Sequence record: NC_105825.1
DNA from: Escherichia phage ECOP18
DNA length: 64,000 nt
Reading direction: 5' to 3' (one strand)
This document shows positions 9,504 through 63,838 of the stretch, in pieces (the stretch's first letter is position 1; each line of letters begins with the position of its first letter). The position numbers and the translations under genes were made by a program. The notes under the pieces were generated by a model. It saw only the letters and a program-made list of their open reading frames with translations. It made no database searches and was not told the DNA's origin.

Positions 9504-9509
9504 ATTGTT

Positions 9510-9585
9510 TGGTCAGTGCGGCAGGACTCGAACCTGCGACCCGAAGCATCCAAGGCTCCCACGCTACCAACTGCGCTACGCACTG
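9510..9585 (-). tRNA. tRNA-Pro (TGG)
   Basis: Perfect acceptor and T stems; loop CTTGGAT. Confidence 0.75.
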
Positions 9586-9594
9586 TTAATTCTT

Positions 9595-9792
9595 TTATTG
9601 TGGAGGAATATTAATAATTCGTCCGTCTACACAATAAACGGTACTAGGAATTGTACTATATATGTAGAAATTCTTTATATTACTCTCTCCGCCACAGAAA
9701 TTTTTAGCAAATTCATACTCTTTATTAATGGTTGAGTCAAGTTTAAAACAACCAGTAAGTAGGAATACAGACAGCAGTAAAACTTTTTTCAT
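9595..9792 (-). CDS. small lipoprotein
   Basis: Signal peptide with lipobox LLTGC; consensus promoter upstream. Confidence 0.5.
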   Translation of the reverse strand: MKKVLLLSVFLLTGCFKLDSTINKEYEFAKNFCGGESNIKNFYIYSTIPSTVYCVDGRIINIPPQ

Positions 9793-9824
9793 TTTGCTTT
9801 CCTTCTCAACACTTTATAAGGTAT

Positions 9825-9853
9825 ATTATACAGAGAATTAAGCATAATAGCAA
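9825..9853 (-). promoter_or_regulatory. sigma70-type early promoter
   Basis: TTGCTA-N17-TATAAT upstream of lipoprotein gene. Confidence 0.6.
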
Positions 9854-10002
9854 ATGAATTTTTAATAAATTTACTTATTGTGTAGGCCACCTGGAGGCTA
9901 CCAACCCCACGGCTGACAAAGAAGTTTGCGAGACCTCTCTTAAGTGCCAGAATAGACCCGCCGATCTATCGGAACCTACATAATAAGTAAACTTTATAGT
10001 GT

Positions 10003-10123
10003 CATTCTAGACAGGACTCGAACCTGTTATCACTTGTGCGGACTTACGAGAACCATTCTTTCACTCGAATCGAACGAGCTTCTGCCCTCGCCAAGCTGGT
10101 TTCCCCATCAACCACGCTAGAAT
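10003..10123 (-). ncRNA. aberrant tRNA-like element (121 nt)
   Basis: Perfect 7-bp end pairing (ATTCTAG/CTAGAAT) and canonical T-arm, but no 7-nt anticodon loop and an extra internal hairpin. Confidence 0.3.
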
Positions 10124-10287
10124 GTTTGATTGTTTTCAGTGCAAGAGTCCGAGTCTTGGACACGACCGCTTCGCAAGTACATAGGCAGCTTATCATGAGT
10201 CAGCACTTCCGAATTGCTAGCTCCGTGTTCTGCACTGAAATTTTATTAGTTTAACCGTAAAGTATTATCTACTTCACCATTAATTGT

Positions 10288-10593
10288 TCAGCATTCTTCT
10301 GGGATTGCTGGTGTAGCCTTATATTCCCACCATTCAGAACCGTCGTATTCACCACGTTCTAACCAAGTTCCATCAGTAAACCACACGTTACCATAAAGCA
10401 ATTGCCCACCGAAACCAGAATCATATTTAAAGTCTAGATTATTTAGAAAATCTTCAATATCTTTTTCTGTATAACCTACGGGTAACACCCAAACTTCTTT
10501 GTCCCCATAATAACCGAATTCTATCTTAATACACTTAACTTCAGAATTAATATTCTTTAAGGCAAGTAACAATTCTTCTTTAGCATTAATCAT
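10288..10593 (-). CDS. hypothetical protein
   Basis: 101-aa ORF. Confidence 0.5.
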   Translation of the reverse strand: MINAKEELLLALKNINSEVKCIKIEFGYYGDKEVWVLPVGYTEKDIEDFLNNLDFKYDSGFGGQLLYGNVWFTDGTWLERGEYDGSEWWEYKATPAIPEEC

Positions 10594-10619
10594 AGCATAT
10601 TTCTCGTACTAGTTTAATT

Positions 10620-10696
10620 TGGCGCGACCGATGGGATTTGAACCCACATTCTCTCCCGTGACAGGGGAGTACCATTACCAAGCCAGCCCCGGTCGC
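10620..10696 (-). tRNA. tRNA-Asp (GTC)
   Basis: Perfect acceptor and anticodon stems; loop CTGTCAC. Confidence 0.75.
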
Positions 10697-10705
10697 ATAA
10701 TTCAT

Positions 10706-10891
10706 TTACTCAGCTTTGAGTTTTTCAATAGCTGCATTAAGTTCTTTAAGAAACTTTTTTCGTACATTAAGACGGTTGAGACTTACTAGTATATCATGTT
10801 TAAGTTCTTCGATGTATTTCTTCTCAACTTCAATATTGTTGATAGTGCTATCACGATGAACTTCTAGCTGTGCAATTACATTCTTGGACAT
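10706..10891 (-). CDS. hypothetical protein
   Basis: 61-aa ORF. Confidence 0.4.
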   Translation of the reverse strand: MSKNVIAQLEVHRDSTINNIEVEKKYIEELKHDILVSLNRLNVRKKFLKELNAAIEKLKAE

Positions 10892-10993
10892 GCTTGTTTC
10901 CTCAGTTATTAATGAAAATGGTATCTGTGACTGAATTCGATGTCAGCAATGATAGCTGGTTGGCTACCGGTTTACTTAACTCTACACAGAATT

Positions 10994-11076
10994 TGGCGGG
11001 CCGTGTAGGATTCGAACCTACGTTGTCTTTCGACATGGATTAACAGTCCACCGCCAAACCGCTTGGCTAACGACCC
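10994..11076 (-). tRNA. tRNA-Asn (GTT)
   Basis: Anticodon loop CTGTTAA; 13-nt variable region. Confidence 0.6.
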
Positions 11077-11228
11077 TAAATTTATATTGCTGACTAGGAT
11101 TTTCACCTAGACGGAGTTAGCACCGTAGCGTGTAGCGGCATACCTCTCCAAACCGTGCCTCATCTTTCAATTACGGAGACAGTGTTCCTACGCGTGCCTG
11201 AATTGATTTAACAACTCTTTCAGCAAAT

Positions 11229-11304
11229 TGGACGACCGCATGAGATTTGAACTCACATAAAAAGGATTTGCAATCCTTCGCCTAAGCCATTCAGCCAACG
11301 GTCG
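11229..11304 (-). tRNA. tRNA-Cys (GCA)
   Basis: Perfect anticodon stem AAGGA/TCCTT; loop TTGCAAA. Confidence 0.75.
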
Positions 11305-11373
11305 ATTTATCTTGTTCTGTCATGTTGCTTCTCCAGTTCAATTTATGTAATTATTATACAGAACTTTTGGAAA

Positions 11374-11661
11374 CTAAGCAACTACATTTTTTAAAAATTT
11401 GATGCCTTTCTTTTTCTTCTTATATTTCCACGTTAAGGGATTCTGTCGATTATGAACGCTTGAGATCTTTGTCTCGTCAAAGTTCTTCAATATCATGTAA
11501 TCACAGGATAATTGTTCTAATGGAATGTGATCACCGTCAAAAGCGTATACATAAGGCTGTTGACTAGCACGATAATGATAGACTTTGTTAATTCTACGTT
11601 TCAGCAACTTATCCGCGCAGTAAATAAAGAAGTTTTCAGGATGCATCAGCAGCTCCCTCAA
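11374..11661 (-). CDS. hypothetical protein
   Basis: 95-aa ORF. Confidence 0.45.
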   Translation of the reverse strand: MRELLMHPENFFIYCADKLLKRRINKVYHYRASQQPYVYAFDGDHIPLEQLSCDYMILKNFDETKISSVHNRQNPLTWKYKKKKKGIKFLKNVVA

Positions 11662-11663
11662 TT

Positions 11664-11737
11664 TGGTGCACCCTGTTCGTATCGAACGAACCTCTCAAGC
11701 TCTTCAGGCAAGCGCTAATCCATCTCAGCTAAAGGTG
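11664..11737 (-). tRNA. tRNA, anticodon unresolved (possibly Phe GAA)
   Basis: CCA, acceptor pairing and T-arm present; anticodon stem imperfect. Confidence 0.4.
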
Positions 11738-11744
11738 CAAATTT

Positions 11745-11821
11745 TGGCAAACCTACTAGGACTTGAACCTAGACCGTACGGTTTTGGAGACCGACATGCT
11801 GTCCAGTAACACTCTAGGAAT
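11745..11821 (-). tRNA. tRNA-like gene, anticodon unresolved
   Basis: CCA and perfect T-arm (CTAGG/CCTAG); acceptor has two mismatches. Confidence 0.3.
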
Positions 11822-11828
11822 GCAGGAT

Positions 11829-11905
11829 TGGCGTCCTGTGCGGGGATCGAACCCACAAATCCTACCTTGAAAGGGTAGTGACTTTACCAGTTTGTCTAAC
11901 AGGAC
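11829..11905 (-). tRNA. tRNA-Glu (TTC)
   Basis: Perfect acceptor and anticodon stems; loop CTTTCAA. Confidence 0.75.
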
Positions 11906-11911
11906 TTAAAT

Positions 11912-12003
11912 TTGGTGTTGGATGATGGAGTCGAACCACCCGAGACCCTTCCGAGTCGGCAGATTTACAGTCTGCTTCGCTACCTCTACGATACTAATCC
12001 AAC
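11912..12003 (-). tRNA. tRNA-Tyr (GTA)
   Basis: Type II, 92 nt; perfect anticodon stem GCAGA/TCTGC, loop CTGTAAA. Confidence 0.75.
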
Positions 12004-12131
12004 ATATTTAAAAGTATTCAAATACTAGTTTAAACACTTTTAGATATGTTTCCAAATTAGATAACTATTATATCAAGTTTTATGGCACTGAGCAAGTCAA
12101 ATTTTAAAGAACTTGCTCAGTGCTGTATTAG

Positions 12132-12407
12132 TTAGTCGAACTTAGGAGCGACAGTTAAGGAGAATGGAAGTTCGAAAACTTCTTCGCCCTCATCACTAAC
12201 AGTAATTACACGACCTTTAAGTTCAGACATTGAAATATCAATATCAGCTTTTGCATCTGGAGCCATGCCAGCTTCAATACATTTAGCTTTAACTTCCGGC
12301 AGAAGTTCTACATCGTAGAAATAAAGCCATTCAATCTCACCTTCCCAGCCTTCCCAGGATTTACAGATTGCACTTTCAATACCAGTTGCTATAACACGAT
12401 TTTGCAT
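12132..12407 (-). CDS. hypothetical protein
   Basis: 91-aa ORF; long hairpin downstream. Confidence 0.5.
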   Translation of the reverse strand: MQNRVIATGIESAICKSWEGWEGEIEWLYFYDVELLPEVKAKCIEAGMAPDAKADIDISMSELKGRVITVSDEGEEVFELPFSLTVAPKFD

Positions 12408-12497
12408 TCGTTAACTCCTTCATCAATTTATATAACTATTATACCAGAAATTTAAAGCAAAAGGCAAGTACATTTTTAAAAATTCTGTTTGGAGGAG

Positions 12498-12704
12498 CTA
12501 AACTCCAGATTCTTCAGCTAAGTCTAGGCTAATAAGAGATATAGCCATAATTGCTGCTCCGTGTTCTCTTTCTCCTGTCTCTTTAGCTAGGGTTATAATA
12601 TCAAGAAATTGCTTATGAAAGTCTGCAACCTCTTGAGTCATACCTGCCTCAGCAATCATGCCTTTAAGCATGAAACGTTGTGCGGTAATTTCGGGATTAG
12701 CCAT
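12498..12704 (-). CDS. hypothetical protein
   Basis: 68-aa ORF. Confidence 0.45.
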   Translation of the reverse strand: MANPEITAQRFMLKGMIAEAGMTQEVADFHKQFLDIITLAKETGEREHGAAIMAISLISLDLAEESGV

Positions 12705-12864
12705 GTTGTTTCTCCAGTTTCATGTTTAATAGTCTACAAATAAAATCAATGTCTTCATCTGTGCCTAGATCTCTATCTTCAAGAGTTGCCTTGAAGTTTT
12801 TCGTCAATTCCATGAGGATAACTTCTATAGAACGACGTGTTGGCGGAGGTGGATGTCTATACAT
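12697..12864 (-). CDS. hypothetical small protein (55 aa)
   Basis: Hand-translated ORF with AAGGAAA RBS; stop overlaps start of next gene. Confidence 0.35.
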   Translation of the reverse strand: MYRHPPPPTRRSIEVILMELTKNFKATLEDRDLGTDEDIDFICRLLNMKLEKQHG

Positions 12865-12879
12865 CTTATTTCCTTAAGT

Positions 12880-12956
12880 TGGTAGGGGTGGTGGGATTCG
12901 AACCCACAAAACCTGAATTTTAAGTCCAGTACCTATGCCAATTCGATTACACCCCC
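12880..12956 (-). tRNA. tRNA, anticodon reads TAA (Leu-decoding) with short variable arm
   Basis: Perfect T-arm; anticodon loop CTTAAAA. Confidence 0.55.
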
Positions 12957-13057
12957 ATGTAATCAGTTTATTAGTTGATACATATTATAGCCTAGTGAAA
13001 ATCCTACTACTAGTCCCACAAACCAACCAATATAATAATCTTTTAGTTTCACAGGTA

Positions 13058-13243
13058 TTATCCTCGTTCAATATCTAGGGAAACACCGCAGTTAGGATTA
13101 ATACCTGTACCGTTGCAATTTGAACAAATCCAGATATTGCAAAAAGTATCTCCTGCTTCTGCATCAGAACTTTCACCAATTCCCCTACACTCAGGGCAGG
13201 CACATTCTTCTAGCTCTTGCTTGAGTTCTTGAAACTTGGACAT
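13058..13243 (-). CDS. DnaJ-type zinc-finger mini-protein
   Basis: Two CxxCxGxG repeats (CPECRGIG, CSNCNGTG). Confidence 0.5.
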   Translation of the reverse strand: MSKFQELKQELEECACPECRGIGESSDAEAGDTFCNIWICSNCNGTGINPNCGVSLDIERG

Positions 13244-13252
13244 ATAGTCTCC

Positions 13253-13441
13253 TTAGTCAATTACTTTTGAGGCTTCAAGGGAGTCGATATAGTATACGTT
13301 TTCTACCATAATCATATAATCTGCCACTTTATCCATAGCTTGGGCCTCAGAGGTAGCTCTGGCTAACCTATATCCTTTTTTATATTCATCCGGGTATTCT
13401 CTATCTTGAATAAATACAACATAAACTATGTATAATTCCAC
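13253..13441 (-). CDS. hypothetical protein
   Basis: Track ORF 13253-13588 runs through two tRNA genes; trimmed to in-frame GTG with AGGGGA RBS. Confidence 0.35.
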   Translation of the reverse strand: MELYIVYVVFIQDREYPDEYKKGYRLARATSEAQAMDKVADYMIMVENVYYIDSLEASKVID

Positions 13442-13461
13442 TTGTAATCCCCTAATTAAGT

Positions 13462-13539
13462 TGGTGGCTCCCCGAGGATTCGAACCTACGTACCTTCCGG
13501 TTATGAGCCGGGTGCTCATACCATATGAGCTTGAGAACC
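13462..13539 (-). tRNA. tRNA-Met/Ile2 (CAT)
   Basis: Anticodon arm CCGG/CCGG with loop CTCATAA. Confidence 0.55.
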
Positions 13540-13545
13540 AGAATT

Positions 13546-13634
13546 TGGCGGAAGAAGTGGGAATCGAACCCACAAGGCTATATTTCAAACCGACAGATTA
13601 GCAATCTGCTGCAATACCGTTATGCTATTCTTCC
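13546..13634 (-). tRNA. tRNA-Ser (GCT)
   Basis: Type II, 89 nt; perfect acceptor and T stems; loop TTGCTAA. Confidence 0.75.
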
Positions 13635-13655
13635 GAATTTATAAGATATATTATA

Positions 13656-14174
13656 TTAGAAATTTAGCTTCATAGCAAGAAAATTTTTCAAGTTTTCGGT
13701 AGACATCTCATCCACATCTACGGGAGAAACAAAGCCGTTTAATTTTCTAGCAAATTTTTCACCCGCAGGATCGTTGTCTCCGACAGCTACCAATTTAAAA
13801 GGTAATAATTTCAGTTGCTTTAATAACGCTTTTCCTGGAGAAGAACCTAACATTGCCAGGGCTGGATAACCAGCGTTATGTAGCGCAACTGCCTTAAATA
13901 CAGATTCAGCGATCAATACTACTTTTTCATCTCCATTGAGAGTTTCTAGTCCCCATACACACTGGGTAGTAGAATAAGTAAAATATTTAGCTTCAAAGGG
14001 ACACTTACTATGACCTTTTGGAGCAGAAGGATTATACGTCTGATAGCCTCGCAACATCCCGGAGAAGTCATACAACGGGACTGTTAGCCATCCTTCCGGA
14101 CTTAACCAGCAATGATATTTATCTGTATCAAATCCTCTGGATAAGAGGTGCTGTGTTAGCTCATCAACATTCAT
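13656..14174 (-). CDS. Toprim-domain protein
   Basis: Conserved Glu (VVLIAES) and DxD (VAVGDNDPAG); start set to MNVDELT downstream of the promoter. Confidence 0.5.
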   Translation of the reverse strand: MNVDELTQHLLSRGFDTDKYHCWLSPEGWLTVPLYDFSGMLRGYQTYNPSAPKGHSKCPFEAKYFTYSTTQCVWGLETLNGDEKVVLIAESVFKAVALHNAGYPALAMLGSSPGKALLKQLKLLPFKLVAVGDNDPAGEKFARKLNGFVSPVDVDEMSTENLKNFLAMKLNF

Positions 14175-14349
14175 ATTTGGTTCCTCTCTCAAATTTATAG
14201 ATATATTATACAGAGAATTTAGCATTCAAGCAATCAAATTTTTTAACTTTTTAGAGGAAAATCATAGGGCACTTAAGGGTAGCAGATAAGTGGGGAGGAC
14301 CAAAATTTGTGACCCCACTAAAAATCCGGGGGCAATTTTTAAAGACCCC

Positions 14350-14378
14350 TTGACATTTTCGCTGGGGTAGTGTAAAGT
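14350..14378 (+). promoter_or_regulatory. sigma70-like promoter for rightward cassette
   Basis: Consensus -35 TTGACA, 17-nt spacer, TG then TAAAGT. Confidence 0.5.
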
Positions 14379-14440
14379 ATATGTTATGGATGAGTGATCA
14401 AAGAGACACACATTTTCTATATACTAGGAGGTGTCAAAAT

Positions 14441-15430
14441 ATGACAGAAGAAGTAGCTAAGAGTCCTGAGACCGTCGCTAGCGTTGCAGCAGAACTGCAC
14501 CGTCACGAGGAATCAGATAAGAAAAAGTGGGAGAAGGTCAGAGTCTACGAAGAAAAACATCGTGAACACGATGATGAAGAAGAAGATGACGATGATGAAC
14601 ATTGTCATAAATATGGAAAACATAAAATGCAAGAACCAGTAAACGTATTCACTAGTGGCTTCCCTGGCCTACTGGGTGGTTACCCAGCAAACGCAGGTGC
14701 TTTCGGTGGTGAAGGTATGGGACTATTCGGAGCTATCCTAATCGGTGCTCTATTAACCGGCGGATTCGGTGGTTTCGGTGGATTCGGTGGACGTGGTGTA
14801 GTTGGTGAAGGTACCGCAGTTGATGCAGTACTTCAGAACCAAGATACCGCTAGTATTCTAGCAGCTATCAACACTACTCGTACAGAGGCTAACCAGGGTA
14901 CTGGAGCTGTTTTAAGCGCAGTTAACAATGGTTTTAGCCAGACAACCCAAAACCAGAGCCGTGATACTCAGTCTGTACTAACTACGATCTACGGTACAGG
15001 TGCTAATCTGTCTAATCAGATCTGCCAGGAAACTCGCAACGTTATTCAGGGTCAGTTCGATCTTTCTCGCCAGATTGATCAATCTTTCGCAGCTAACCAG
15101 ATAGCTCGTGCACAAGATAAGTTTGATTCTGCACAGATCGCTTTCCAGCAGACTTTACAAACTAATAACCAGTTTGCCGCTGTTCAGGCTCAGATGTGTG
15201 CTAACCAGAACTCTCTGGAACGTCAGATCGCTGAATGTTGCTGTGAACTTCAGACTGCGATCGCTGGTGTAACTACTGCGCGTATCCAGGATGAGTTAGA
15301 CGCATGTCGCCTACGTGAAGCAATCGCTGCGGGTAGCGGTGCTAACGGTCAGGTAATTAATCAAATCGCTTTAAGTCTTGGTGCTATCACTCAGACTCTG
15401 GCTGGTCTGCAGGCTAAACTGCCGGCTTAA
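14441..15430 (+). CDS. low-complexity protein (acidic/His-rich N-terminus, Gly-rich hydrophobic segment, Q/N/A/T-rich C-terminal region)
   Basis: AGGAGGTG RBS before ATG at 14441; GGFGGFGGFGG segment; host-like codon usage; own promoter. Confidence 0.6.
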   Translation: MTEEVAKSPETVASVAAELHRHEESDKKKWEKVRVYEEKHREHDDEEEDDDDEHCHKYGKHKMQEPVNVFTSGFPGLLGGYPANAGAFGGEGMGLFGAILIGALLTGGFGGFGGFGGRGVVGEGTAVDAVLQNQDTASILAAINTTRTEANQGTGAVLSAVNNGFSQTTQNQSRDTQSVLTTIYGTGANLSNQICQETRNVIQGQFDLSRQIDQSFAANQIARAQDKFDSAQIAFQQTLQTNNQFAAVQAQMCANQNSLERQIAECCCELQTAIAGVTTARIQDELDACRLREAIAAGSGANGQVINQIALSLGAITQTLAGLQAKLPA

Positions 15431-15451
15431 TATTAAGGGGAGGAGCCCCTT

Positions 15452-15868
15452 ATGAGTAAATATGGTTTTGTAAATAACGGACTTAATCAAAGTATGGGCT
15501 CCCAGCAGCCCATTCCGGGTCTGGATAACCCCTACTTACAACAGTTGCAACAGCGTTTAGCAGAAGCGCAACAGATGCAGCAACAACTCCAGCAAAACCC
15601 TGGAAGTGTGAGTCCTATGCAAATGATGCAGCAAATGAGCGGGCAGTCGCAAATGCCTCAACAAATGCAGCAACAGGTGCCTCAGCAGCAAGTTCAGCAA
15701 CAAACCCAACAACCGCAGGTTTCTGCGGAAGGACAGGCAGTACTAGCCCTTTTCGAAGACTTCGCAAAGACAGAGGATGGGAAACAGCTTGTATCACTTA
15801 TGGGTAAGTTTAATAGCTTCTGCCAAAGCCAAGTTGCAAAAGCTCAAAATGGGGGTAGTAACTCCTAA
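15452..15868 (+). CDS. Gln/Met-rich low-complexity protein
   Basis: GGGGAGG RBS; runs of QQ/MQQ. Confidence 0.55.
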   Translation: MSKYGFVNNGLNQSMGSQQPIPGLDNPYLQQLQQRLAEAQQMQQQLQQNPGSVSPMQMMQQMSGQSQMPQQMQQQVPQQQVQQQTQQPQVSAEGQAVLALFEDFAKTEDGKQLVSLMGKFNSFCQSQVAKAQNGGSNS

Positions 15869-15877
15869 GGAGGAAAT

Positions 15878-16072
15878 ATGTGTTGCAGAAAATCTGTTTC
15901 GTGCTGCCCAGTGCCTGTAGCACGTTGTTGCTCTCCAGCAATGTTTACGCAAATACCGGCGTTCAATCCCTTTGCCTTTAAACCTACTCTTATCCTGCCC
16001 CCTAGAGTAGATTTTCAGTCAAGATTGGCCTCCCGTATGGGTGGTTGCTGTACACCGAGAGTATGGTTCTAA
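15878..16072 (+). CDS. Cys-doublet small protein
   Basis: AAGGAGG RBS; CC doublets; followed by terminator. Confidence 0.5.
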   Translation: MCCRKSVSCCPVPVARCCSPAMFTQIPAFNPFAFKPTLILPPRVDFQSRLASRMGGCCTPRVWF

Positions 16073-16082
16073 ACCAAAAACA

Positions 16083-16118
16083 AAAGCCCCTGCCGAAAGG
16101 TAAGGGGCTTTTTCTTTT
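16083..16118 (+). terminator. rho-independent terminator ending rightward cassette
   Basis: Hairpin AGCCCC/GGGGCT then TTTTTCTTTTG. Confidence 0.65.
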
Positions 16119-16124
16119 GCCTTA

Positions 16125-16165
16125 AATACAGAAAAGCCCGCGCTCTCGTAGGAAACGCGGGCTTG
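16125..16165 (-). terminator. rho-independent terminator after SPFH gene
   Basis: Hairpin AGCCCGCG/CGCGGGCT then T-run on minus strand. Confidence 0.6.
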
Positions 16166-16187
16166 GTTCGAAGATTACGTGTAACTA

Positions 16188-17135
16188 TTACTTGTTACGC
16201 ATATCCATGATCATTTGACCATCGTAGCCAGTACCTACCACAGTCTGAGGTACACCACCTTGATACTTCTGAGCACGGATCATTTCAACTTCCAGTTGTT
16301 TCCAACGAATCATTTCAGGAGTAATGGTACGTTGCAATGCGGCGTTAGCTTCAGCTTCTTTCTTAGCTGCGTACAGTTTAGCATCTGCGTCACGTTCATT
16401 AGCAATAGCTTGGTTGTTACGAGCTTCACGATCTGCTTCTGCTTGTTTAACTTTTTGCTGTGCTTCCTGTTCAACGCGAGCAAGTTCAGCTTTCGCAGCA
16501 TTAACTTGCTCTTCACGAACTTTGGTATTCTGTACCTGTTCCATGATTACTGGCGGCAAGGTAATATCCTGAAGGAATACCTGCTTAACTGTGTAACCAT
16601 ATGGGCGCGCATACTCTTCAACTTCCTGTTGAATTGCAGTTTGCAATTGAGCCTGAATTTTAGCATCAAATAAATCTTGTGCTTTAGGTACAGACTTACC
16701 AAACTCACGAATAGTAGACAGTAATTTTTCAGTTACATACTTGTCTAGTGCCTGATCCTGAGTACCTGCGTTAATACGGTTAATCGGTGCTTTAGAACCA
16801 TCAAACTGCAACATAACAGTCAGGTCAACAGTGGATTTAAACTTATCCTGGCTAGGAACCTGAAGTTTATCTAATTTTACAGCAATATCTTTTGTACTAA
16901 AAGTATCGAAAGATGCAAACGGGTTTACAAGATGGAAGCCCGGCAATACTGGATTAGGGTCTACTTTACCCAGGAATGTTTGGGTTTTAACCGTACCATC
17001 AGAAACAATAGTATATGAATTAAAAGCTAGGATTAAACCTGCTAAACCAACTACAGCACCAATACCCCAACGTTTAATAGTACGAATTACTTTCTGCTCA
17101 GAAGTCAGTTCTTTCATATTTTTAGTAGCAAACAT
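16188..17135 (-). CDS. SPFH/band-7 (stomatin/prohibitin/HflC-like) membrane protein
   Basis: N-terminal TM, SPFH-like core, Ala/Gln/Glu-rich coiled-coil C-terminus. Confidence 0.55.
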   Translation of the reverse strand: MFATKNMKELTSEQKVIRTIKRWGIGAVVGLAGLILAFNSYTIVSDGTVKTQTFLGKVDPNPVLPGFHLVNPFASFDTFSTKDIAVKLDKLQVPSQDKFKSTVDLTVMLQFDGSKAPINRINAGTQDQALDKYVTEKLLSTIREFGKSVPKAQDLFDAKIQAQLQTAIQQEVEEYARPYGYTVKQVFLQDITLPPVIMEQVQNTKVREEQVNAAKAELARVEQEAQQKVKQAEADREARNNQAIANERDADAKLYAAKKEAEANAALQRTITPEMIRWKQLEVEMIRAQKYQGGVPQTVVGTGYDGQMIMDMRNK

Positions 17136-17169
17136 ATATTTCCTTTGTTTTAGTTACAGTTAATAAAAT

Positions 17170-17244
17170 TGGCCGAGGTGACAGGATTCGAACCTGCATA
17201 AAGGAATTTAGAAGACTCCTGCCTCTCCCTTAGACTACACCCCG
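17170..17244 (-). tRNA. tRNA-Arg (TCT)
   Basis: Anticodon loop CTTCTAA. Confidence 0.65.
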
Positions 17245-57740: not shown

Positions 57741-57780
57741 AAAAAACCCCCAGTGGACAATCCACTGGGGGTTTTATTTT
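57741..57780. terminator. bidirectional rho-independent terminator at early/late boundary
   Basis: 11-bp GC stem flanked by A-run upstream and T-run downstream; between convergent genes. Confidence 0.7.
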
Positions 57781-60022
57781 ATTTAGCTTTCAGCTTTTTA
57801 ATTTCTAATTTGGCAGAATCTAACTCTTGTTTAAGAGTTGTAACAGCAGCTATTAAGTCAGAAATCAGAGCAGATGTACTAACATTTAATACCTCTTCTC
57901 CTTCCCCAACAGTTGATGAGTATACATAGGTAGGATCTACATCACGTAATTCCTGAGCAATATATCCTCTATCATGCCTACCTCCAGCTTTCCAGTCAAA
58001 CTCTCTAGGAGTGATTTTAGTTATTCTATCTAAGGCCCCTTCGGATGCTCTAACTATATTCTCCTTAAGTTTGATATCCGAACCTTCAATAGCAATAGTA
58101 CCTGCAGTGGAAGCAATCCTACCATCATTAGCTCTAAAGAACCACTGTTTTAACCCAAATGTATTAGAGTATATAGTTAAGGCTACAGCATCCAATACAA
58201 CAGAACCACTACGAACAGTCCCGAACTGGAACCTATCGTCATACCACCATCCTTGCAGCCAGTTAACATAACCACCAGAACCTACAGCACCTGGGGCATT
58301 ATTCAACTCGATAGCATTTCTCTCTGCCGCAGATACACCACAACCCCCACCGGGCATAGTATGTAGATCCGTAGTAGTAGTAGCAGCCTCTAAATGTAGG
58401 CCGTTGGCACCCGAAGCTTTTATCCAGGATTTATTATTAATCGAAGTAGGTAAGTTAACAACACCATTAGATTGTACTTCAAAGTTAGCAAGATCCCCAT
58501 TCTCCCTATTATGCGCTTGTAGAACAGCAACACTATAAGGATTACCAAATCTTTTGGCACTTACTATTAAAGCTGAGTGATTAACTGCTTCCCCTACTCT
58601 GTAGTCGCTATATGTAAAGCCACCATAAGTAGTAGTTCCATCAGCAGGGCGTGTAGAATCTCCATTAATAACATGATACTGTGAACCAGCAGCGTTAAAA
58701 GAACCGTTAGCACGGATAATCCAAATACCTGCTGCATGGTTAGGGTATAGATCACCAATAGGGCCGGTACCGCCAGGGTCTGATTGGTAAGCCACACCAC
58801 GACCATATGTCTTGCTACTTCTAGAGGCCGAAAATCCTAAGTGGTCTCCCTTATCTGTACCTCCTATAGTAAGGGAACTACCTGTATCTTGAGCATTTAA
58901 ATAAAAAGCCCCCATGGCATCTATAGCATCTGCGTTACTACCATGAGTATAGAAAGTACCAGTAATATTGGGGGCAACCTGATTCCACACCTGATTAGCC
59001 GAAGGTTCATTAGTAGCACCTGAACTACCAGATAAAAATAAATGCTTAATACTATTTAACTGAGTACCGTTAAGATCTGGAACTCGGAAAGTAGTAGAAC
59101 CATCACCAGTAGAGTAGGAAGCTCTCCAAGCGCAGGGTCTAACAGGATCCCCACTATTAATCCATAAAGCGTCGGAAACAGCGTAAAATAGACCACTAGA
59201 TACCGCAGACCATAGATCTGCTGTTTTAGCATCAGTACGGCTAACTAACTGACCATCTGCTGGTATATAGCCGGCTGGCAGTTTAGTACGGTTACCGTTA
59301 AACCATTCTACAGCACCAATGAAGTTATTCATAACCCCACTCATGCTAGCGTTGCCGCCACCAGAAATATTAGCTAGCTGACGAACAGTAACAGCATCAT
59401 AAGGTGCTTGACCATCGGCGGCTAATGCTAGAGGTTTACCATCTAGCAGCTTAGTTAAGGCCTCCGCAGGAGTACTAGCACCGGTACCACCAGATTGAAT
59501 AGGTAAAGGTATAAATGTACCAGAAGCTGTACTATAAACTCCCCAGGTAGTACCTTCACCAACAGTAAGATAGTTTGTCGCATAGGGACTATATACCAGA
59601 GTTTCGCCGGGCAACTGCTTAAACCTATTAAGATCTAAGTTAACTCTAGCGTTTTCCGCAGTGCTAGCCCCTGTACCACCCTGAGCAACCGTAATAGCCT
59701 TAGTAAGTGCGTTTAGTTCAGTAATATCGTTATTAGCACCTGTAGCAGCTTTAGTGTTGAGAGTACTATTAATACTACCAATTGCAATATTAATATTGCC
59801 AATAGCCTCTACATTGCTCTGAATGGAACTATCTATGCCAGTAAGACGAGTATTTAATTCTTGTTTATCTAAATTATATTTAGATATTTGTAAGTATTTG
59901 GAAGTTAGTACAACAGCACCAGCTTCTCCATCAACAGAGAAAACACCAGCTACTGCTGCGTCTCTGTTAACTACAACGTAAGGCGCCATTGCGCCAGATT
60001 TTGGCATTAAATTACGTGACAT
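57779..60022 (-). CDS. tail fibre with C-terminal intramolecular chaperone domain (LtfB-like)
   Basis: Gly/Ser/Thr-rich beta-type composition; C-terminal GSDIKLKENI ... coiled-coil auto-processing module. Confidence 0.7.
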   Translation of the reverse strand: MSRNLMPKSGAMAPYVVVNRDAAVAGVFSVDGEAGAVVLTSKYLQISKYNLDKQELNTRLTGIDSSIQSNVEAIGNINIAIGSINSTLNTKAATGANNDITELNALTKAITVAQGGTGASTAENARVNLDLNRFKQLPGETLVYSPYATNYLTVGEGTTWGVYSTASGTFIPLPIQSGGTGASTPAEALTKLLDGKPLALAADGQAPYDAVTVRQLANISGGGNASMSGVMNNFIGAVEWFNGNRTKLPAGYIPADGQLVSRTDAKTADLWSAVSSGLFYAVSDALWINSGDPVRPCAWRASYSTGDGSTTFRVPDLNGTQLNSIKHLFLSGSSGATNEPSANQVWNQVAPNITGTFYTHGSNADAIDAMGAFYLNAQDTGSSLTIGGTDKGDHLGFSASRSSKTYGRGVAYQSDPGGTGPIGDLYPNHAAGIWIIRANGSFNAAGSQYHVINGDSTRPADGTTTYGGFTYSDYRVGEAVNHSALIVSAKRFGNPYSVAVLQAHNRENGDLANFEVQSNGVVNLPTSINNKSWIKASGANGLHLEAATTTTDLHTMPGGGCGVSAAERNAIELNNAPGAVGSGGYVNWLQGWWYDDRFQFGTVRSGSVVLDAVALTIYSNTFGLKQWFFRANDGRIASTAGTIAIEGSDIKLKENIVRASEGALDRITKITPREFDWKAGGRHDRGYIAQELRDVDPTYVYSSTVGEGEEVLNVSTSALISDLIAAVTTLKQELDSAKLEIKKLKAK

Positions 60023-60065
60023 TTTATTTCCTTAGTAACTTAGGGGAGGAAACTCCCCTATGCCC

Positions 60066-63000
60066 TTATTTGTTAACTAGAGTAGCTACTAGAGCTCTTA
60101 ACTCTGCCAGCTCTGCCTTGACTGTTTTCAGTTCTTCCTGTGACTCTTCAAACTTAATAGATAAGTAGCGAACTGCTAAAGCAGTATCAATAGCAATTGG
60201 GTTGATATCTAAGGCTAGAGTATCATCATTATAACCAATGATCTTACCTTCTGCATTCTCAGCTTCACCATTACAGCAATGATGTTCTGGGATTTCTATA
60301 ATAGGAGAACCAGGTATTAACTTGACATATTCGGGGTCAATTTTATAAAGATCTTGAGCAATAACACCACGGCGTACACGATTATACTTATCTAGTTTAT
60401 AGATAAATGTGGTAGGTTTAAATTGCTTTATATTCTCATAGGAGGCTAACCCATCATCATAATTAATATCTCTTTTGATATCTCTATCTGAAGAAGGGTT
60501 CATAGCAATGTCATAGTTACCTCCCCAAGGATCATGACCCCAAGTATACATGCTACCATTTGTTCTAAAGTTGAATGAACGGTGGAACTGGCCATCCCCA
60601 TTTAACTTAAGAGCAGCATCAGGCCATGCAGCGTTACCATTAGAAATACATCCAAGCCCAACACGTAGTGAGTAGCCTCCTGTAGATACAGTACCACCAG
60701 AAACAAATGGAGACCAACCACCATCATTATTTGTTACAGACTCTGCAAAAAATGGGGCGCCCATGTAATTCCACTCTAAGCCCCAAGATCCTTGGATACA
60801 CTGACCACGAAAACCTCTTTGAGCAGTTATGTGCCCACCGAAAGAGTTATAGAAGTTAAACTCTTTCCAATCTGTACCAGCGTTGTTAACTCCAATACGG
60901 AAGCAGTCTAAGTCCAGTCCACTACCACGGATACCACCTACTTGCCAGTAACCGTTATACCAGTTACCATGTAGTAAGTTAACCCAAGAACCAGCACCAG
61001 GGTCATTATTAGGAGTAGGTACAGCCATACTAATTTCCCTGTTGCCACCACCTGTTTGCTGTATATAGATTTTTTCCCCACCTTTGATCCATCCCTGGGC
61101 TGTAACATAACCACTTGCAAGGTAGTTAACTGCATGTACATTCTGTAGCCCAGTTAAATCACCATTTTCTACAAACTGTATATAACGGTTTGCACTATTT
61201 AAAGTATTGTTAATATGAAGGGTAATTTTAGCCAAGCCTGATTGCATCTCATGATAGATTCTACCCTGAGTAATAACATTTTGATCAGATTCCTTTAGCC
61301 TGTTTAGATTAAGGACACCACTATGGGGTAGGCTTTCGGGATTAGATAGATCTACCCCAGTAAATCTAGGAGTATTATGATACCCCAATCCAAAGTTATC
61401 ACGCACCGCAACTTTATCAGTAGCTCCTGTACCACCAGAGGCTATAGGCAACGCAGCTACCGTTTCTTCACCCTTCTTCCAGACACCCCATGTTCCATCA
61501 TTAGTTATTCTAAACTCATTAATACCAGCAGGGCTCTGGAGGGAATTGAAAGCAGCATCAGCGGGACTATCATTACAGAAAACTCCACCAACTTCTAAAG
61601 CTTTCTTAGCAGCACTAACTGTGGTAGCTCCAGTACCACCTTTACCAACACTAAGAACTCCATTAGTATCACCATTTAGATCTGGCTTATTAACAGTACC
61701 ATAAAGAATATTAGTATGAACAATAGGGTTTTCACTATCTAAACCAGCATCATTGATTGCAGCTACAAATACTGCGGCACTACCATACCCAGCGCAGATA
61801 AATGAGTTAGTATCTGCTACCCTAGAGTAGAAACCTGCAGAATACGAGGGCAAACCATCAAATCCAGTATCATTGCGATAATACCCAGAACCAAAGGCTC
61901 TCATAGCTTTAAAGAAGGATACTAGATCCGGCTCATTTAACGTAATACCAGCACCACCTAAGCCAAAAGCACCACGAAGTAGAACTTCTCCATCAGTACC
62001 GTTCCAAGCATTCTTAGTAACAACGTTACCTAGTGCTAGGTTACCATTCTCATCAGGTATAATAGCACCATTAACCATAGCCACATAAGGGAGCTTAATA
62101 GCTCCAGTATCATCAGCAGGACTAATCCCATTCACAGTGGTAATATAAGGAATTTGTTCTTTGATAGCACCAGCATCTTCTTCACCCTTAGTTGGTGCAC
62201 GGAATGCCTGTCCCTGCATCATATCTGGTAGACGGAAAGTAGTAGTACCATTACCAGTGGAGAAATAGAGAGTTGCACCTGCTTGCCATTGTTCTTCGGT
62301 AACAGAAGGGATTAAGCCAGCCTCAATAGCTTCCCAAGTATCTGGGTAGTCTACACGAAGAACTTCACGACCATCAGCAGGAAGAACACCAGGGTAGCCA
62401 ACACCTGAATCTTTATCATAAGGGAACCAAGTAACTTCACCCAGCCATAAAGAGGGGTTACCACCAGGAAGAGTAATCTGTACGTTACCTGCGTCATCTG
62501 CACGAACGTTGTTAATAGAAACTAGCTTTTGCTCTGTCTCTACTAACTCTAATACTGGAGTCTCAGCAGTTCCAGCTACTTTGTACCAACCGTACTTTGA
62601 ATCAGTTTGATTCCATACTAAAATCTTTTCACCTAATACACGACTAGATACATCTGCATCAGCTTCAGCTTTAGTTTTATATACTTTGATAAATCCAGAA
62701 ATATCTTCTTTATCAAGTTTAGTGTCTACTATTTGAGCAGCACGATCAGCTTCTGCTTTAGCGCGATTAGCCTCAGTAGTTGCATTTCCTGCCTGATTAG
62801 TGGCTTCACCCTCAGATGCAGCAGCATTAATCTCAGACGTTTTAGCATTTAATTCCGATTGCTTAGCAGCAGCAGCATGTTCTCCAGCAGTTGTAGCAGA
62901 ATTAGCAGCTTTTATTTCGGAAGAGGCGGTTCTTTTCTCAGCAGCTTCTGCACCAGTTTGGGCTGTCTGTGCAGCTATTTTAGCCTGTTCAGCTAATAAA

Positions 63001-63416
63001 CGACTTTGTTCAGCATTCTGCGCTGCCAATTCGGCAGAGTCTCTAAATCCCTTTGATTCTTGCGCAGAAGCTGCAGAATTATCTGCACTGCTCTGGGCTA
63101 ATCCCGCCTGTTTTTCTGACTCAGTAGCAGAGGCAGCAGATTGAGTTGCTGAAGCTTCGGAAGCATCAGCATGAATACCTGCCTGAATCTCTGAATCTTT
63201 AGCTTTATTTTCAGAGTCTTTAGCTGCTATTTCAGAACCTTTAGCAGCAGCAGCGGATCCTGCAGCGGCCTCTACAGCAGCAGTTAATTCACCAGCAGTA
63301 ATAGAACTAATAGAATTACCTAAAACTACTGTATATTTAGGATACTTACTAGCAGTAGTTGTAGTATCATCTATGTTCAGAATCTGCTGTACAATAATTT
63401 TAGTTTTAAGTGCCAT
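60066..63416 (-). CDS. ltf: L-shaped tail fibre with C-terminal intramolecular chaperone domain (LtfA-like)
   Basis: N-terminal Ala/Ser/Glu-rich repeats, long Gly-rich fibre region, C-terminal SSDRDIKRDINYDD ... module. Confidence 0.75.
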   Translation of the reverse strand: MALKTKIIVQQILNIDDTTTTASKYPKYTVVLGNSISSITAGELTAAVEAAAGSAAAAKGSEIAAKDSENKAKDSEIQAGIHADASEASATQSAASATESEKQAGLAQSSADNSAASAQESKGFRDSAELAAQNAEQSRLLAEQAKIAAQTAQTGAEAAEKRTASSEIKAANSATTAGEHAAAAKQSELNAKTSEINAAASEGEATNQAGNATTEANRAKAEADRAAQIVDTKLDKEDISGFIKVYKTKAEADADVSSRVLGEKILVWNQTDSKYGWYKVAGTAETPVLELVETEQKLVSINNVRADDAGNVQITLPGGNPSLWLGEVTWFPYDKDSGVGYPGVLPADGREVLRVDYPDTWEAIEAGLIPSVTEEQWQAGATLYFSTGNGTTTFRLPDMMQGQAFRAPTKGEEDAGAIKEQIPYITTVNGISPADDTGAIKLPYVAMVNGAIIPDENGNLALGNVVTKNAWNGTDGEVLLRGAFGLGGAGITLNEPDLVSFFKAMRAFGSGYYRNDTGFDGLPSYSAGFYSRVADTNSFICAGYGSAAVFVAAINDAGLDSENPIVHTNILYGTVNKPDLNGDTNGVLSVGKGGTGATTVSAAKKALEVGGVFCNDSPADAAFNSLQSPAGINEFRITNDGTWGVWKKGEETVAALPIASGGTGATDKVAVRDNFGLGYHNTPRFTGVDLSNPESLPHSGVLNLNRLKESDQNVITQGRIYHEMQSGLAKITLHINNTLNSANRYIQFVENGDLTGLQNVHAVNYLASGYVTAQGWIKGGEKIYIQQTGGGNREISMAVPTPNNDPGAGSWVNLLHGNWYNGYWQVGGIRGSGLDLDCFRIGVNNAGTDWKEFNFYNSFGGHITAQRGFRGQCIQGSWGLEWNYMGAPFFAESVTNNDGGWSPFVSGGTVSTGGYSLRVGLGCISNGNAAWPDAALKLNGDGQFHRSFNFRTNGSMYTWGHDPWGGNYDIAMNPSSDRDIKRDINYDDGLASYENIKQFKPTTFIYKLDKYNRVRRGVIAQDLYKIDPEYVKLIPGSPIIEIPEHHCCNGEAENAEGKIIGYNDDTLALDINPIAIDTALAVRYLSIKFEESQEELKTVKAELAELRALVATLVNK

Positions 63417-63838
63417 TATTGAGTTACTCCATCGCTGATGTATACTTTACCTTCCATAATACGGAAAGAACTGACTTCAGAGCCAATTACATCACGAGTC
63501 ATTAGGATATCATAATAACCAGCAAAGCGTTGTCTTGGGTTATACTTATCACGTTCTTTAGATGCTTTTTCACCAATATTAGTAACGTCTGCAACGGAAA
63601 GACTAATTGCAGCAGCACCTTGAGCAGCATCAATAACGCGAGTTTTAAAGTTAGCTAGAACTTCGGCGTTCTCGTCTAAGCTAGACTTAATAGTTCCTCG
63701 GAGTGAATATCCGGTTAAGTTAACAGGAACTTCTGTTGGTGGATACACACTATCATCAACATCCATAAACTGCATGATAAGACCATAAGGCACTTTCTCA
63801 TCAACAACAATATCAATTACTCTATTTTCTGTACTCAT
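63416..63838 (-). CDS. hypothetical late protein
   Basis: 140-aa ORF coupled upstream of tail-fibre gene. Confidence 0.5.

What the first reader, a model, noticed from the sequence alone, without database searches (positions are those of the whole stretch)
57779..63416. Two consecutive tail-fibre genes, each with its own C-terminal intramolecular chaperone domain
Both the 1116-aa and 747-aa leftward ORFs end in a self-cleaving chaperone-type module (SSDRDIKRDINYDD... and GSDIKLKENI...) followed by a short coiled coil. T5 has a single L-shaped fibre gene as far as I recall; two such genes suggest branched fibres with two receptor specificities, as described for some T5 relatives.
Basis: partly seen in the sequence, partly recalled or inferred. 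Interest (0 to 1): 0.6.

Follow-up and report, generated by a model that had tools for sequence, protein, structure and literature searches.

The report
Two-gene branched side fibre of T5-like phage

Summary
Two complete leftward ORFs lie at 60066-63416 (1116 aa) and 57779-60022 (747 aa). Both end in a Pfam Peptidase_S74 intramolecular-chaperone domain that keeps the catalytic Ser/Lys pair (S976/K981 and S648/K653).

They are separate genes, not a frameshifted single gene. They sit in different frames, 43 nt apart, and the second has its own ribosome-binding site and N-terminal module.

The locus is the LtfC-LtfA-LtfB lateral tail fibre locus described for T5-like phages DT57C and DT571/2 (Golomidova 2016; Ayala 2023):
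- LtfA residues 1-442 are about 90% identical to DT57C LtfA (PDB 8HQZ).
- LtfA residues 223-443 match the phiEco32/SU10-type region proposed to dock the second fibre.
- LtfB residues 1-45 are 92% identical to DT57C LtfB and 73% identical to the Kuravirus partner fibre.

The whole locus is about 92% identical in DNA to phages NBEco001 and DaisyDussoix. T5 itself has one ltf gene.

The branched geometry and the two receptor specificities are inferred by homology and were not tested for this phage. The only local particulars are a mosaic LtfB and a hairpin between the two genes. Interest is low.

The parts
63416..63838 (-). ltfC: collar protein (140 aa). In DT57C it forms the dodecameric ring that holds the LtfA N-termini on the tail tip.
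   Evidence: Pfam PF23926 LtfC, 57.6 bits against a cut-off of 27. 95% identical to DT57C LtfC. Function taken from PMC10713586.
60066..63416 (-). ltfA: lateral tail fibre protein A (1116 aa plus stop), the tail-attached subunit.
   Evidence: ORF. phrog_5481 tail fibre, 1370 bits, full length. 93% aa identity to NBEco001, 90.5% to DaisyDussoix, 45.8% overall to DT57C LtfA.
63297..63416 (-). LtfA aa 1-40: N-terminal anchor. In DT57C this segment forms beta-strands that insert into the LtfC ring as a 'lasso'.
   Evidence: 100% identical to DT57C LtfA over aa 1-50 and 64% to T5 pb1. Aligned to PDB 8HQZ chain d. Role from PMC10713586.
62724..63296 (-). LtfA aa 41-231: Ala/Ser/Glu-rich long helix, the trimeric coiled-coil stalk.
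   Evidence: AF2 secondary structure gives helices H41-160 and H167-231. In DT57C the helix starts at T40.
62088..62750 (-). LtfA aa 223-443: phiEco32 gp14 / SU10 gp12-like module containing a collar-like motif; the proposed docking site for LtfB.
   Evidence: phmmer hit to PDB 7Z47_D (SU10 long tail fibre proximal protein), E 6e-42 for aa 223-443. 64-98% identical to DT57C LtfA in 50-aa blocks. At least 86% identical in 34 of 55 homologues. The docking role was proposed in PMC4728585.
60492..62087 (-). LtfA aa 444-975: variable distal shaft and presumed receptor-binding region.
   Evidence: Only 12-30% identical to DT57C LtfA, but 92-100% to NBEco001. Beta-rich in the AF2 model, at low confidence. 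The receptor-binding role is inferred from the DT57C mapping.
60069..60491 (-). LtfA aa 976-1116: intramolecular chaperone (Peptidase_S74), with predicted cleavage before Ser976, Lys981 as general base, a beta-hairpin at 1031-1069 and a C-terminal helix at 1071-1115.
   Evidence: PF13884. S976 is invariant and K981 is present in 55 of 56 homologues. Aligned with T5 pb1 S1264/K1269. Fold hits: MyRF ICA 7DC3 with TM 0.64-0.71, endoNF 3GW6 and GA-1 3GUD.
60037..60064 (-). Stable RNA hairpin in the ltfA-ltfB spacer, with no U-tract after it.
   Evidence: MFE -15.6 kcal/mol, z -2.64. A hairpin sits at the same place in four relatives, with the same stem core in DaisyDussoix and NBEco001 and a different sequence in DT57C and PGN6866. 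Function unknown.
60027..60033 (-). Ribosome-binding site AAGGAAA, 4 nt upstream of the ltfB ATG.
   Evidence: Sequence read directly.
57779..60022 (-). ltfB: lateral tail fibre protein B (747 aa plus stop), the second subunit, attached via LtfA in the DT57C model.
   Evidence: ORF. phrog_6921 tail fibre, 470 bits, full length. 90.4% aa identity to NBEco001 LtfB and 40.3% to DT57C LtfB.
59888..60022 (-). LtfB aa 1-45: N-terminal adaptor module (phiEco32 gp15-like), proposed to bind LtfA.
   Evidence: 92% identical to DT57C LtfB over aa 1-50 (alignment). 33/45 identical to the second fibre of Kuravirus PGN6866. Role proposed in PMC4728585.
59399..59887 (-). LtfB aa 46-208: helical and beta shaft with GGTGA-type repeats; a recombinant patch.
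   Evidence: Window 59400-59900 is 96.4% nt identical to Salmonella phage Sw2 but 71% to DaisyDussoix. The flanking parts are at least 94% aa identical to NBEco001/DaisyDussoix.
58082..59398 (-). LtfB aa 209-647: collar-like central domain (aa about 222-320) and beta-rich distal domain (aa about 464-643, pLDDT 80-90), the presumed receptor-binding region.
   Evidence: Pfam Collar PF07484 just under its cut-off, 23.2 against 24 bits. AF2 model. 20-46% identical to DT57C LtfB.
57782..58081 (-). LtfB aa 648-747: intramolecular chaperone (Peptidase_S74), with catalytic Ser648, Lys653 and a C-terminal helix at 716-746.
   Evidence: PF13884. S648 is present in 59/60 and K653 in 60/60 homologues. The best PDB fold hit for the whole model is endoNF chaperone 3GW6, prob 0.97. 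pLDDT 78-89.
57743..57775 (.). Bidirectional intrinsic terminator between the convergent ltfB gene and the dut-side operon.
   Evidence: 15-bp stem with T-runs on both strands. T5 has an annotated 'efficient bidirectional rho-independent terminator' at the same position.

Best explanation
The region is the lateral (L-shaped) tail fibre locus ltfC-ltfA-ltfB of a T5-like phage (Tequintavirus), of the two-protein DT57C type.

Proposed assembly:
1. LtfA trimerises through a long N-terminal coiled coil.
2. Its first ~40 residues are locked into the LtfC collar ring on the tail tip.
3. Its phiEco32 gp14-like module (aa 223-443) docks the conserved 45-residue N-terminus of an LtfB trimer. The fibre therefore branches into an LtfA tip and an LtfB tip.
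4. Each protein folds its own distal trimeric beta-structure with the help of its C-terminal intramolecular chaperone.
5. Once the trimer is correct, the chaperone's Ser (S976 in LtfA, S648 in LtfB), activated by Lys five residues downstream, cleaves the chain and the chaperone is released.
6. The two mature tips then bind surface polysaccharides, most likely two different O-antigen types. This lets the phage get through the O-antigen layer before the central fibre binds its outer-membrane protein receptor.

Shown here: gene structure, domain content, catalytic residues, and homology of each module to the characterised system.

Inferred by homology only: branching, cleavage, and dual specificity in this particular phage.
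For: - Two intact ORFs in different frames, with the second having its own RBS.
- LtfC lies directly upstream and is 95% identical to DT57C LtfC.
- LtfA aa 1-442 align to DT57C LtfA (PDB 8HQZ_d) at E 4e-223, with about 90% identity.
- LtfA aa 223-443 match SU10 gp12 (7Z47_D) at E 6e-42.
- LtfB aa 1-45 are nearly identical to DT57C LtfB, and 33/45 are identical to the Kuravirus partner fibre.
- The gene order and flanking genes (D13, D14, D15, dut | ltfB, ltfA, ltfC, pb4) are the same as in DT57C, NBEco001 and DaisyDussoix.
- PF13884 is above its gathering score in both proteins.
- The Ser/Lys dyad aligns with T5 pb1 S1264/K1269 (mechanism in PMC4690869). It is invariant or nearly so in 56 and 60 homologues.
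- AF2 models give the chaperone fold. LtfA matches MyRF ICA 7DC3 at TM 0.64-0.71, plus 3GW6 and 3GUD. LtfB matches 3GW6 at prob 0.97.
- For DT57C and DT571/2, genetics support the branched model: LtfB depends on LtfA, and LtfA binds O22 or O87 while LtfB binds O81 (PMC4728585). Cryo-EM shows no LtfB density on the tail core (PMC10713586).
Against: - Nothing here tests assembly, cleavage or receptor binding for this phage.
- The distal halves of LtfA (aa 444-975) and LtfB (aa 209-647) are only 12-46% identical to the DT57C proteins, so the receptors cannot be transferred.
- Even in DT57C, the LtfA-LtfB contact has never been seen at high resolution.
- In Kuravirus SU10 the homologous pair is described as proximal plus distal subunits of one fibre, so the exact geometry (branch or serial joint) is model-dependent.
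- The AF2 monomer models are of low overall confidence: mean pLDDT 55.5 for LtfA and 67.8 for LtfB.
- The upstream residues that complete the catalytic site in T5 pb1 (Asp1239 and Arg1250 from a neighbouring chain) were not identified here.
Confidence: 0.9

Rival explanations
1. LtfA and LtfB form one serial (proximal plus distal) fibre rather than a branch. LtfB would simply extend LtfA, as described for the SU10 long tail fibre (gp12 proximal, gp13 distal), so only the LtfB tip would meet a receptor.
For: The LtfA docking module matches SU10 gp12, which the SU10 paper calls the proximal subunit of a two-protein long fibre. The first fibre protein of Kuravirus PGN6866 has no S74 chaperone.
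Against: LtfA continues for about 530 residues beyond the docking module. It ends in its own beta-rich distal region and a complete, catalytically competent chaperone, which is the signature of a free fibre tip. In DT57C and DT571/2, host specificity was switched by exchanging the LtfA C-terminal region.
Confidence: 0.06
2. The second ORF is a frameshifted or degenerate continuation of the first, or one of the two chaperone domains is dead, so the phage effectively has one functional fibre protein.
For: The genes are adjacent on the same strand and share short similar modules: the collar-like motif, GGTGA repeats and the S74 domain. A laboratory deletion that fuses ltfA and ltfB is known, in DT530(1), and a 'fused tail fiber protein' entry exists for DT571/2.
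Against: LtfA ends with a full S74 domain, a C-terminal helix and a TAA stop. A 43-nt spacer with a hairpin and an RBS precedes the ltfB ATG, and the frames differ. LtfB aa 1-45 is a conserved start module found at the N-terminus of homologues in two phage families. Both Ser/Lys dyads are intact. The same two-ORF layout is annotated in NBEco001, DaisyDussoix and DT57C.
Confidence: 0.01
3. LtfB attaches to the virion independently of LtfA, for example to LtfC or the baseplate hub, giving two separate fibre sets rather than a branched one.
For: Weak densities near the DT57C tail tip were interpreted as LtfB folded back onto the tip. No direct LtfA-LtfB contact has been resolved.
Against: The LtfB N-terminus has no similarity to T5 tail proteins but matches the partner-binding N-terminus of Kuravirus fibres. 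DT571/2 ltfA mutants lose LtfB-dependent host range, and ltfB mutants lose all fibres. No robust LtfB density was found on the tail core.
Confidence: 0.03

Closest known systems
LtfA/LtfB branched lateral tail fibres of T5-like phages DT57C and DT571/2 (Golomidova et al. 2016, PMC4728585; Ayala et al. 2023, PMC10713586, PDB 8HQZ)
   Same: Same gene order, ltfC-ltfA-ltfB, next to dut/D15. LtfC is 95% identical. LtfA aa 1-442 are about 90% identical, covering the anchor, coiled coil and docking module. LtfB aa 1-50 are 92% identical. Both proteins end in Peptidase_S74 with the Ser-x4-Lys dyad.
   Different: The distal, presumed receptor-binding parts are different alleles: 12-30% identity for LtfA aa 451-1000 and 20-46% for LtfB aa 151-747. 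The O22/O87/O81 specificities of DT57C and DT571/2 therefore cannot be assumed. The chaperone of the window's LtfA is longer, 141 aa against 118.
Phage NBEco001 (NC_048853) and Escherichia phage DaisyDussoix/Bas31 (NC_105118) ltf loci
   Same: Nearest full-length relatives: 92.6% and 91.2% nt identity over 97% of the locus, with LtfA 93% and 90.5% aa and LtfB 90% and 89% aa identical. The ORF lengths are the same in NBEco001 (1116 and 747 aa); DaisyDussoix LtfA is 1107 aa.
   Different: LtfB aa about 50-200 are only about 52-74% identical. In the window that patch is Sw2/HdH2-like (96% and 93% nt). The LtfA coiled coil (aa 100-200) is also more divergent, at 62-80%.
[quoted passage not shown] 2015, PMC4690869; PDB 4UW7/4UW8 cited from memory)
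   Same: The N-terminal anchor is homologous (60-64% identity over aa 1-100). The C-terminal S74 chaperone has the same Ser/Lys spacing (S1264/K1269), a beta-hairpin and a terminal coiled-coil helix. The genomic position is the same.
   Different: T5 has one 1396-aa protein, no LtfB, and no phiEco32-like docking module. Its tip binds polymannose O-antigen.
Kuravirus (phiEco32 gp14/gp15; SU10 gp12/gp13; PGN6866) two-protein long tail fibres
   Same: LtfA aa 223-443 match SU10 gp12 (E 6e-42). LtfB aa 1-45 are 73% identical to the N-terminus of the second Kuravirus fibre, and aa 180-747 are 32% identical, including the S74 chaperone. The two genes are adjacent with a hairpin between them.
   Different: These are podoviruses, and their fibre attaches to the adaptor rather than to an LtfC collar. 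The first Kuravirus fibre protein (PGN6866, 880 aa) lacks the S74 chaperone that LtfA has.
Endosialidase-type intramolecular chaperone / Peptidase S74 (K1F endoNF 3GW6, GA-1 gp12 3GUD, MyRF ICA 7DC3)
   Same: The fold matches in the AF2 models. The Pfam family and the catalytic Ser and Lys are present.
   Different: Sequence identity is only 15-19%. The passenger domains are fibres, not sialidase or neck-appendage domains.

Membership tests
DT57C-type two-protein lateral tail fibre (LtfA/LtfB) of T5-like phages | Two adjacent fibre genes, ltfA then ltfB, directly downstream of ltfC in the T5-like tail module | tested here: met
   ORFs. LtfC identified. Synteny with DT57C, NBEco001 and DaisyDussoix.
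DT57C-type two-protein lateral tail fibre (LtfA/LtfB) of T5-like phages | LtfA N-terminus homologous to T5 Ltf and DT57C LtfA (anchor into the LtfC ring, followed by a trimerising helix from about residue 40) | tested here: met
   aa 1-50 are 100% identical to DT57C LtfA and 64% to T5 pb1. Aligned to 8HQZ_d. The predicted helix starts at residue 41.
DT57C-type two-protein lateral tail fibre (LtfA/LtfB) of T5-like phages | LtfA internal module homologous to phiEco32 gp14 (aa about 223-471 in DT57C) | tested here: met
   aa 223-443 match SU10 gp12 (7Z47_D), E 6e-42. phrog_10305 match over aa 173-443.
DT57C-type two-protein lateral tail fibre (LtfA/LtfB) of T5-like phages | LtfB N-terminal ~45 aa homologous to phiEco32 gp15-type fibres | tested here: met
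   33/45 identical to PGN6866 fibre B. 92% identical to DT57C LtfB over aa 1-50 (alignment).
DT57C-type two-protein lateral tail fibre (LtfA/LtfB) of T5-like phages | Physical attachment of LtfB to the virion through LtfA (branched fibre) | not testable with these tools
   Needs virion proteomics, mutants or cryo-EM. Only genetic and indirect structural evidence exists, and only for DT57C and DT571/2.
DT57C-type two-protein lateral tail fibre (LtfA/LtfB) of T5-like phages | Two different receptor (O-antigen) specificities, one per protein | not testable with these tools
   The distal regions of LtfA and LtfB share only short motifs with each other and differ from the DT57C alleles. This is compatible with two specificities but does not demonstrate them.
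Peptidase S74 / intramolecular chaperone of endosialidase | Match to PF13884 above the gathering score at the C-terminus | tested here: met
   LtfA 39.2 bits and LtfB 43.9 bits, cut-off 22.
Peptidase S74 / intramolecular chaperone of endosialidase | Catalytic Ser at the cleavage site and Lys five residues downstream (T5 pb1 S1264/K1269) | tested here: met
   LtfA S976/K981 and LtfB S648/K653 align with the T5 residues. Conserved in 56/56 and 55/56 LtfA homologues, and in 59/60 and 60/60 LtfB homologues. Mechanism in PMC4690869.
Peptidase S74 / intramolecular chaperone of endosialidase | Chaperone fold: mixed alpha/beta part, beta-hairpin, and a C-terminal helix that forms a trimeric coiled coil | tested here: met
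   AF2 secondary structure, with pLDDT 71-89 in these segments. Foldseek hits to 7DC3 (TM 0.64-0.71), 3GW6 and 3GUD. Heptad periodicity. The LtfB fold hit is weak on global scores (E 6e-3, TMt 0.21).
Peptidase S74 / intramolecular chaperone of endosialidase | Upstream Asp and neighbouring-chain Arg that form the oxyanion hole and sense correct trimer folding | not tested
   Described for T5 pb1 as Asp1239 and Arg1250. The preceding regions are too divergent to align reliably, and only monomer models were available.
Peptidase S74 / intramolecular chaperone of endosialidase | Actual autoproteolytic release of the C-terminal fragment | not testable with these tools
   Requires expression with SDS-PAGE or mass spectrometry. 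The predicted released fragments are 141 aa (LtfA) and 100 aa (LtfB).

The most novel reading that the evidence does not exclude
The most novel reading not excluded concerns this particular allele pair: an LtfA tip shared with many Salmonella phages, and a recombinant LtfB with an Sw2-like shaft and an NBEco001/DaisyDussoix-like tip. This pair might give a receptor combination not yet described, for example one Salmonella and one E. coli O-antigen. In addition, the structurally conserved but sequence-variable hairpin between ltfA and ltfB might be a regulatory element that sets the LtfA:LtfB ratio. Either would be an incremental addition to a known system.
Probability: 0.2. Interest if true: 0.25.

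Novelty: already known. Interest (0 to 1): 0.12.

Why it matters
Lateral tail fibres decide which O-antigen-protected strains a T5-like phage can infect, so knowing that a phage carries two tips matters for predicting host range and choosing phages for therapy. That principle was established for DT57C and DT571/2 in 2016 and is found in roughly half of sequenced T5-like phages. This window adds one more allele combination and no new biology.

Tried and rejected
- **Frameshift or single-gene hypothesis:** rejected from the stop codon, spacer, RBS, frame difference and conserved LtfB start module.
- **Solved relatives of the chaperone domains by sequence (phmmer against the PDB):** this reached only DT57C LtfA and an unrelated fibre, 8JOV. 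It did not reach T5 pb1, endoNF or GA-1. Those links came only from Pfam, a manual alignment and fold search.
- **Solved homologue of the LtfB N-terminal adaptor:** none found. Only the GGTGA-repeat region matched SU10 gp12 and a gp47 fibre.
- **Full-length AF2 monomer models:** overall confidence was low (pLDDT 55.5 and 67.8). They say nothing reliable about the receptor-binding tips or the LtfA-LtfB contact. No meaningful PDB fold match was obtained for either distal domain.
- **Receptor assignment for the nearest relative, DaisyDussoix (Bas31):** not found. The BASEL paper reports only that IrisVonRoten (Bas32) uses O16.
- **Promoter-like sites in the locus:** not clearly above the shuffled expectation (22 against 15.9 ± 3.9), so they were not interpreted.
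- **Plus-strand ORFs inside the fibre genes (58011-58271, 61377-61598, 62800-63144):** treated as chance antisense ORFs.


Full report
**Observation**

The two ORFs exist exactly as described: 60066..63416 (minus strand, 1116 aa) and 57779..60022 (minus strand, 747 aa). Both proteins match Pfam PF13884 (Peptidase_S74, 'chaperone of endosialidase') above the curated cut-off, at aa 976-1032 and 648-700. Each match begins at profile position 1. The ORF directly upstream (63416..63838, minus strand, 140 aa) matches PF23926, the LtfC collar protein.

**Context**

The window is a T5-like phage genome segment.
- It carries 21 tRNA genes.
- The SbcC-like D13, D14, D15 flap endonuclease and dUTPase genes converge on the fibre genes.
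- The replication region is 96-97% identical to Tequintavirus-type phages.

The fibre locus itself is 92.6% identical in DNA to phage NBEco001 and 91.2% to Escherichia phage DaisyDussoix (Bas31), over 97% of its length. Both of those phages have the same annotated layout of two fibre genes plus ltfC.

**Are they two genes?**

Yes.
- The ltfA reading frame ends with a complete S74 domain, a C-terminal helix and a TAA stop.
- A 43-nt spacer follows, containing a stable hairpin and the ribosome-binding site AAGGAAA just upstream of the ltfB ATG.
- The two ORFs are in different frames (from the coordinates).
- LtfB begins with a 45-residue module that is nearly identical to the start of DT57C LtfB. 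It is 33/45 identical to the start of the second fibre protein of Kuravirus PGN6866.

**Identity of the system**

LtfA aa 1-442 align to DT57C LtfA (PDB 8HQZ chain d) at about 90% identity, E 4e-223. In 50-aa blocks the identity is 100% at the N-terminus and 62-98% up to residue 400. It then falls to 12-30%.

LtfA aa 223-443 also match SU10 gp12 (7Z47_D, E 6e-42). SU10 gp12 is the proximal subunit of the two-protein long fibre of a phiEco32-like podovirus. This is the region that Golomidova et al. proposed as the docking site for LtfB (PMC4728585).

LtfC is 95% identical to DT57C LtfC. In DT57C, twelve LtfC copies form a ring that clamps the N-terminal strands of nine LtfA chains, and the LtfA helix starts at T40 (PMC10713586). 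The AF2 model of the window's LtfA starts its long helix at residue 41.

Every sequence-level defining feature of the DT57C-type LtfA/LtfB system is met.

**Chaperone domains**

A MAFFT alignment of C-termini places LtfA PSS976DRDIK981 and LtfB EGS648DIKLK653 on T5 pb1 NTS1264DARLK1269. In T5, Ser1264 is the scissile/catalytic residue and Lys1269 activates it, and S1264A blocks cleavage (PMC4690869).

Conservation across homologues:
- Across 56 LtfA-type homologues, the Ser is invariant and the Lys is present in 55.
- Across 60 LtfB-type homologues, the Ser is present in 59 and the Lys in all 60.

AF2 models built with these alignments are poor overall (mean pLDDT 55.5 and 67.8), but the chaperone segments reach pLDDT 71-89. 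They show the expected elements: short helices and strands, a beta-hairpin (long in LtfA at 1031-1069, short in LtfB at 700-714), and a terminal helix (1071-1115 and 716-746).

Foldseek against the PDB gives these results:
- For LtfA: the MyRF ICA domain (7DC3, TM 0.64-0.71, rmsd 2.5-3.3 Å), then the endosialidase chaperone 3GW6 and GA-1 gp12 3GUD.
- For LtfB: 3GW6 as the top and only chaperone-related hit (prob 0.97, E 6e-3).

The terminal helices have a heptad pattern. In solved homologues this helix is the central coiled coil of the chaperone trimer, so it is part of the domain rather than an appendage to it.

**Mechanism**

The best-supported reading is the published branched-fibre model.
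1. LtfA trimers are fixed to the tail by LtfC.
2. LtfB trimers dock by their N-terminal 45 residues onto the phiEco32-like module of LtfA.
3. Each protein's distal beta-structure is folded by its own chaperone, which then removes itself by Ser/Lys autoproteolysis.
4. The two tips bind different O-antigens.

For DT57C and DT571/2 this rests on genetics. LtfA tip swaps switch O22/O87 specificity. LtfB is needed for an O81 host. ltfA mutants lose both specificities. It also rests on the absence of LtfB density on the tail core.

For this phage the branching, cleavage and dual specificity are inferences. The distal regions are different alleles from DT57C and have no known receptor. The two tips differ from each other: only short shared motifs were found. 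That is compatible with two specificities but does not prove them.

**Local particulars**

LtfB is a mosaic. Window 59400-59900 (aa about 40-208) is 96.4% identical to Salmonella phage Sw2 and about 93% to HdH2 and HZ_ZJUN2, but only 71% to DaisyDussoix. The remainder is at least 94% identical in protein to NBEco001 and DaisyDussoix.

The full-length LtfA allele is shared at 88-91% protein identity with many Salmonella phages such as smaug and ABTNLsp9.

Such modular exchange is normal for tail fibres. Database searches found hundreds of homologues of both proteins, mostly on contigs of about 100-115 kb.

**Verdict**

However, the arrangement was described in 2016, has been examined structurally since, and occurs in about half of sequenced T5-related phages. 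I rate it as already known and of low interest.

Noticed in passing
window 60037-60064 (- strand), ltfA-ltfB spacer: A stable hairpin (AGGGGAG-TTTC-CTCCCCT core, -15.6 kcal/mol, z -2.6) with no U-tract sits between the two fibre genes. A hairpin also sits at this position in four relatives: DaisyDussoix and NBEco001 share the stem core and differ in the loop, while DT57C and Kuravirus PGN6866 have a different sequence. It may be an attenuator or an mRNA-stability element.
   Followed up: partly
window 59400-59900 (LtfB aa ~40-208): A recombinant patch: 96% nt identical to Salmonella phage Sw2 and about 93% to HdH2 and HZ_ZJUN2, but only 71% to DaisyDussoix. DaisyDussoix matches the rest of the gene at 94% aa identity or better.
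   Followed up: yes
window 57743-57775: A perfect 15-bp-stem bidirectional intrinsic terminator lies between convergent ltfB and the dut-side operon. It is at the same position as the annotated bidirectional terminator of T5.
   Followed up: partly
homologues P0154, P0220, P0164 and others; L004:1597-4239: Not all LtfA-type proteins end in an S74 chaperone. IrmaTschudi LtfA (679 aa) has none, TrudiRoth and several metagenomic ones end in PF25670, and the first Kuravirus fibre protein lacks S74.
   Followed up: no
homologue lists: Many close homologues are labelled as Salmonella enterica, E. coli, Shigella or Citrobacter proteins but sit on contigs of about 100-115 kb. These are probably complete T5-like phage genomes carried in bacterial assemblies.
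   Followed up: no
window 5895-17244 (- strand): A cluster of 21 tRNA genes, typical of T5-like phages. Thr, Asn, Tyr and Ser are called with unusually long lengths (83-91 nt).
   Followed up: no
window 14381-15868 (+ strand): Two adjacent low-complexity ORFs lie in a locally GC-rich, positive-GC-skew patch, opposite in orientation to the surrounding tRNA region. The first is 349 aa with acidic, Gly-rich and Gln/Ala-rich stretches. The second is 138 aa and very Gln-rich.
   Followed up: no
window ~30000: GC skew switches sign from negative to positive, which marks a change of transcription and coding direction between the early and tRNA region and the replication genes.
   Followed up: no
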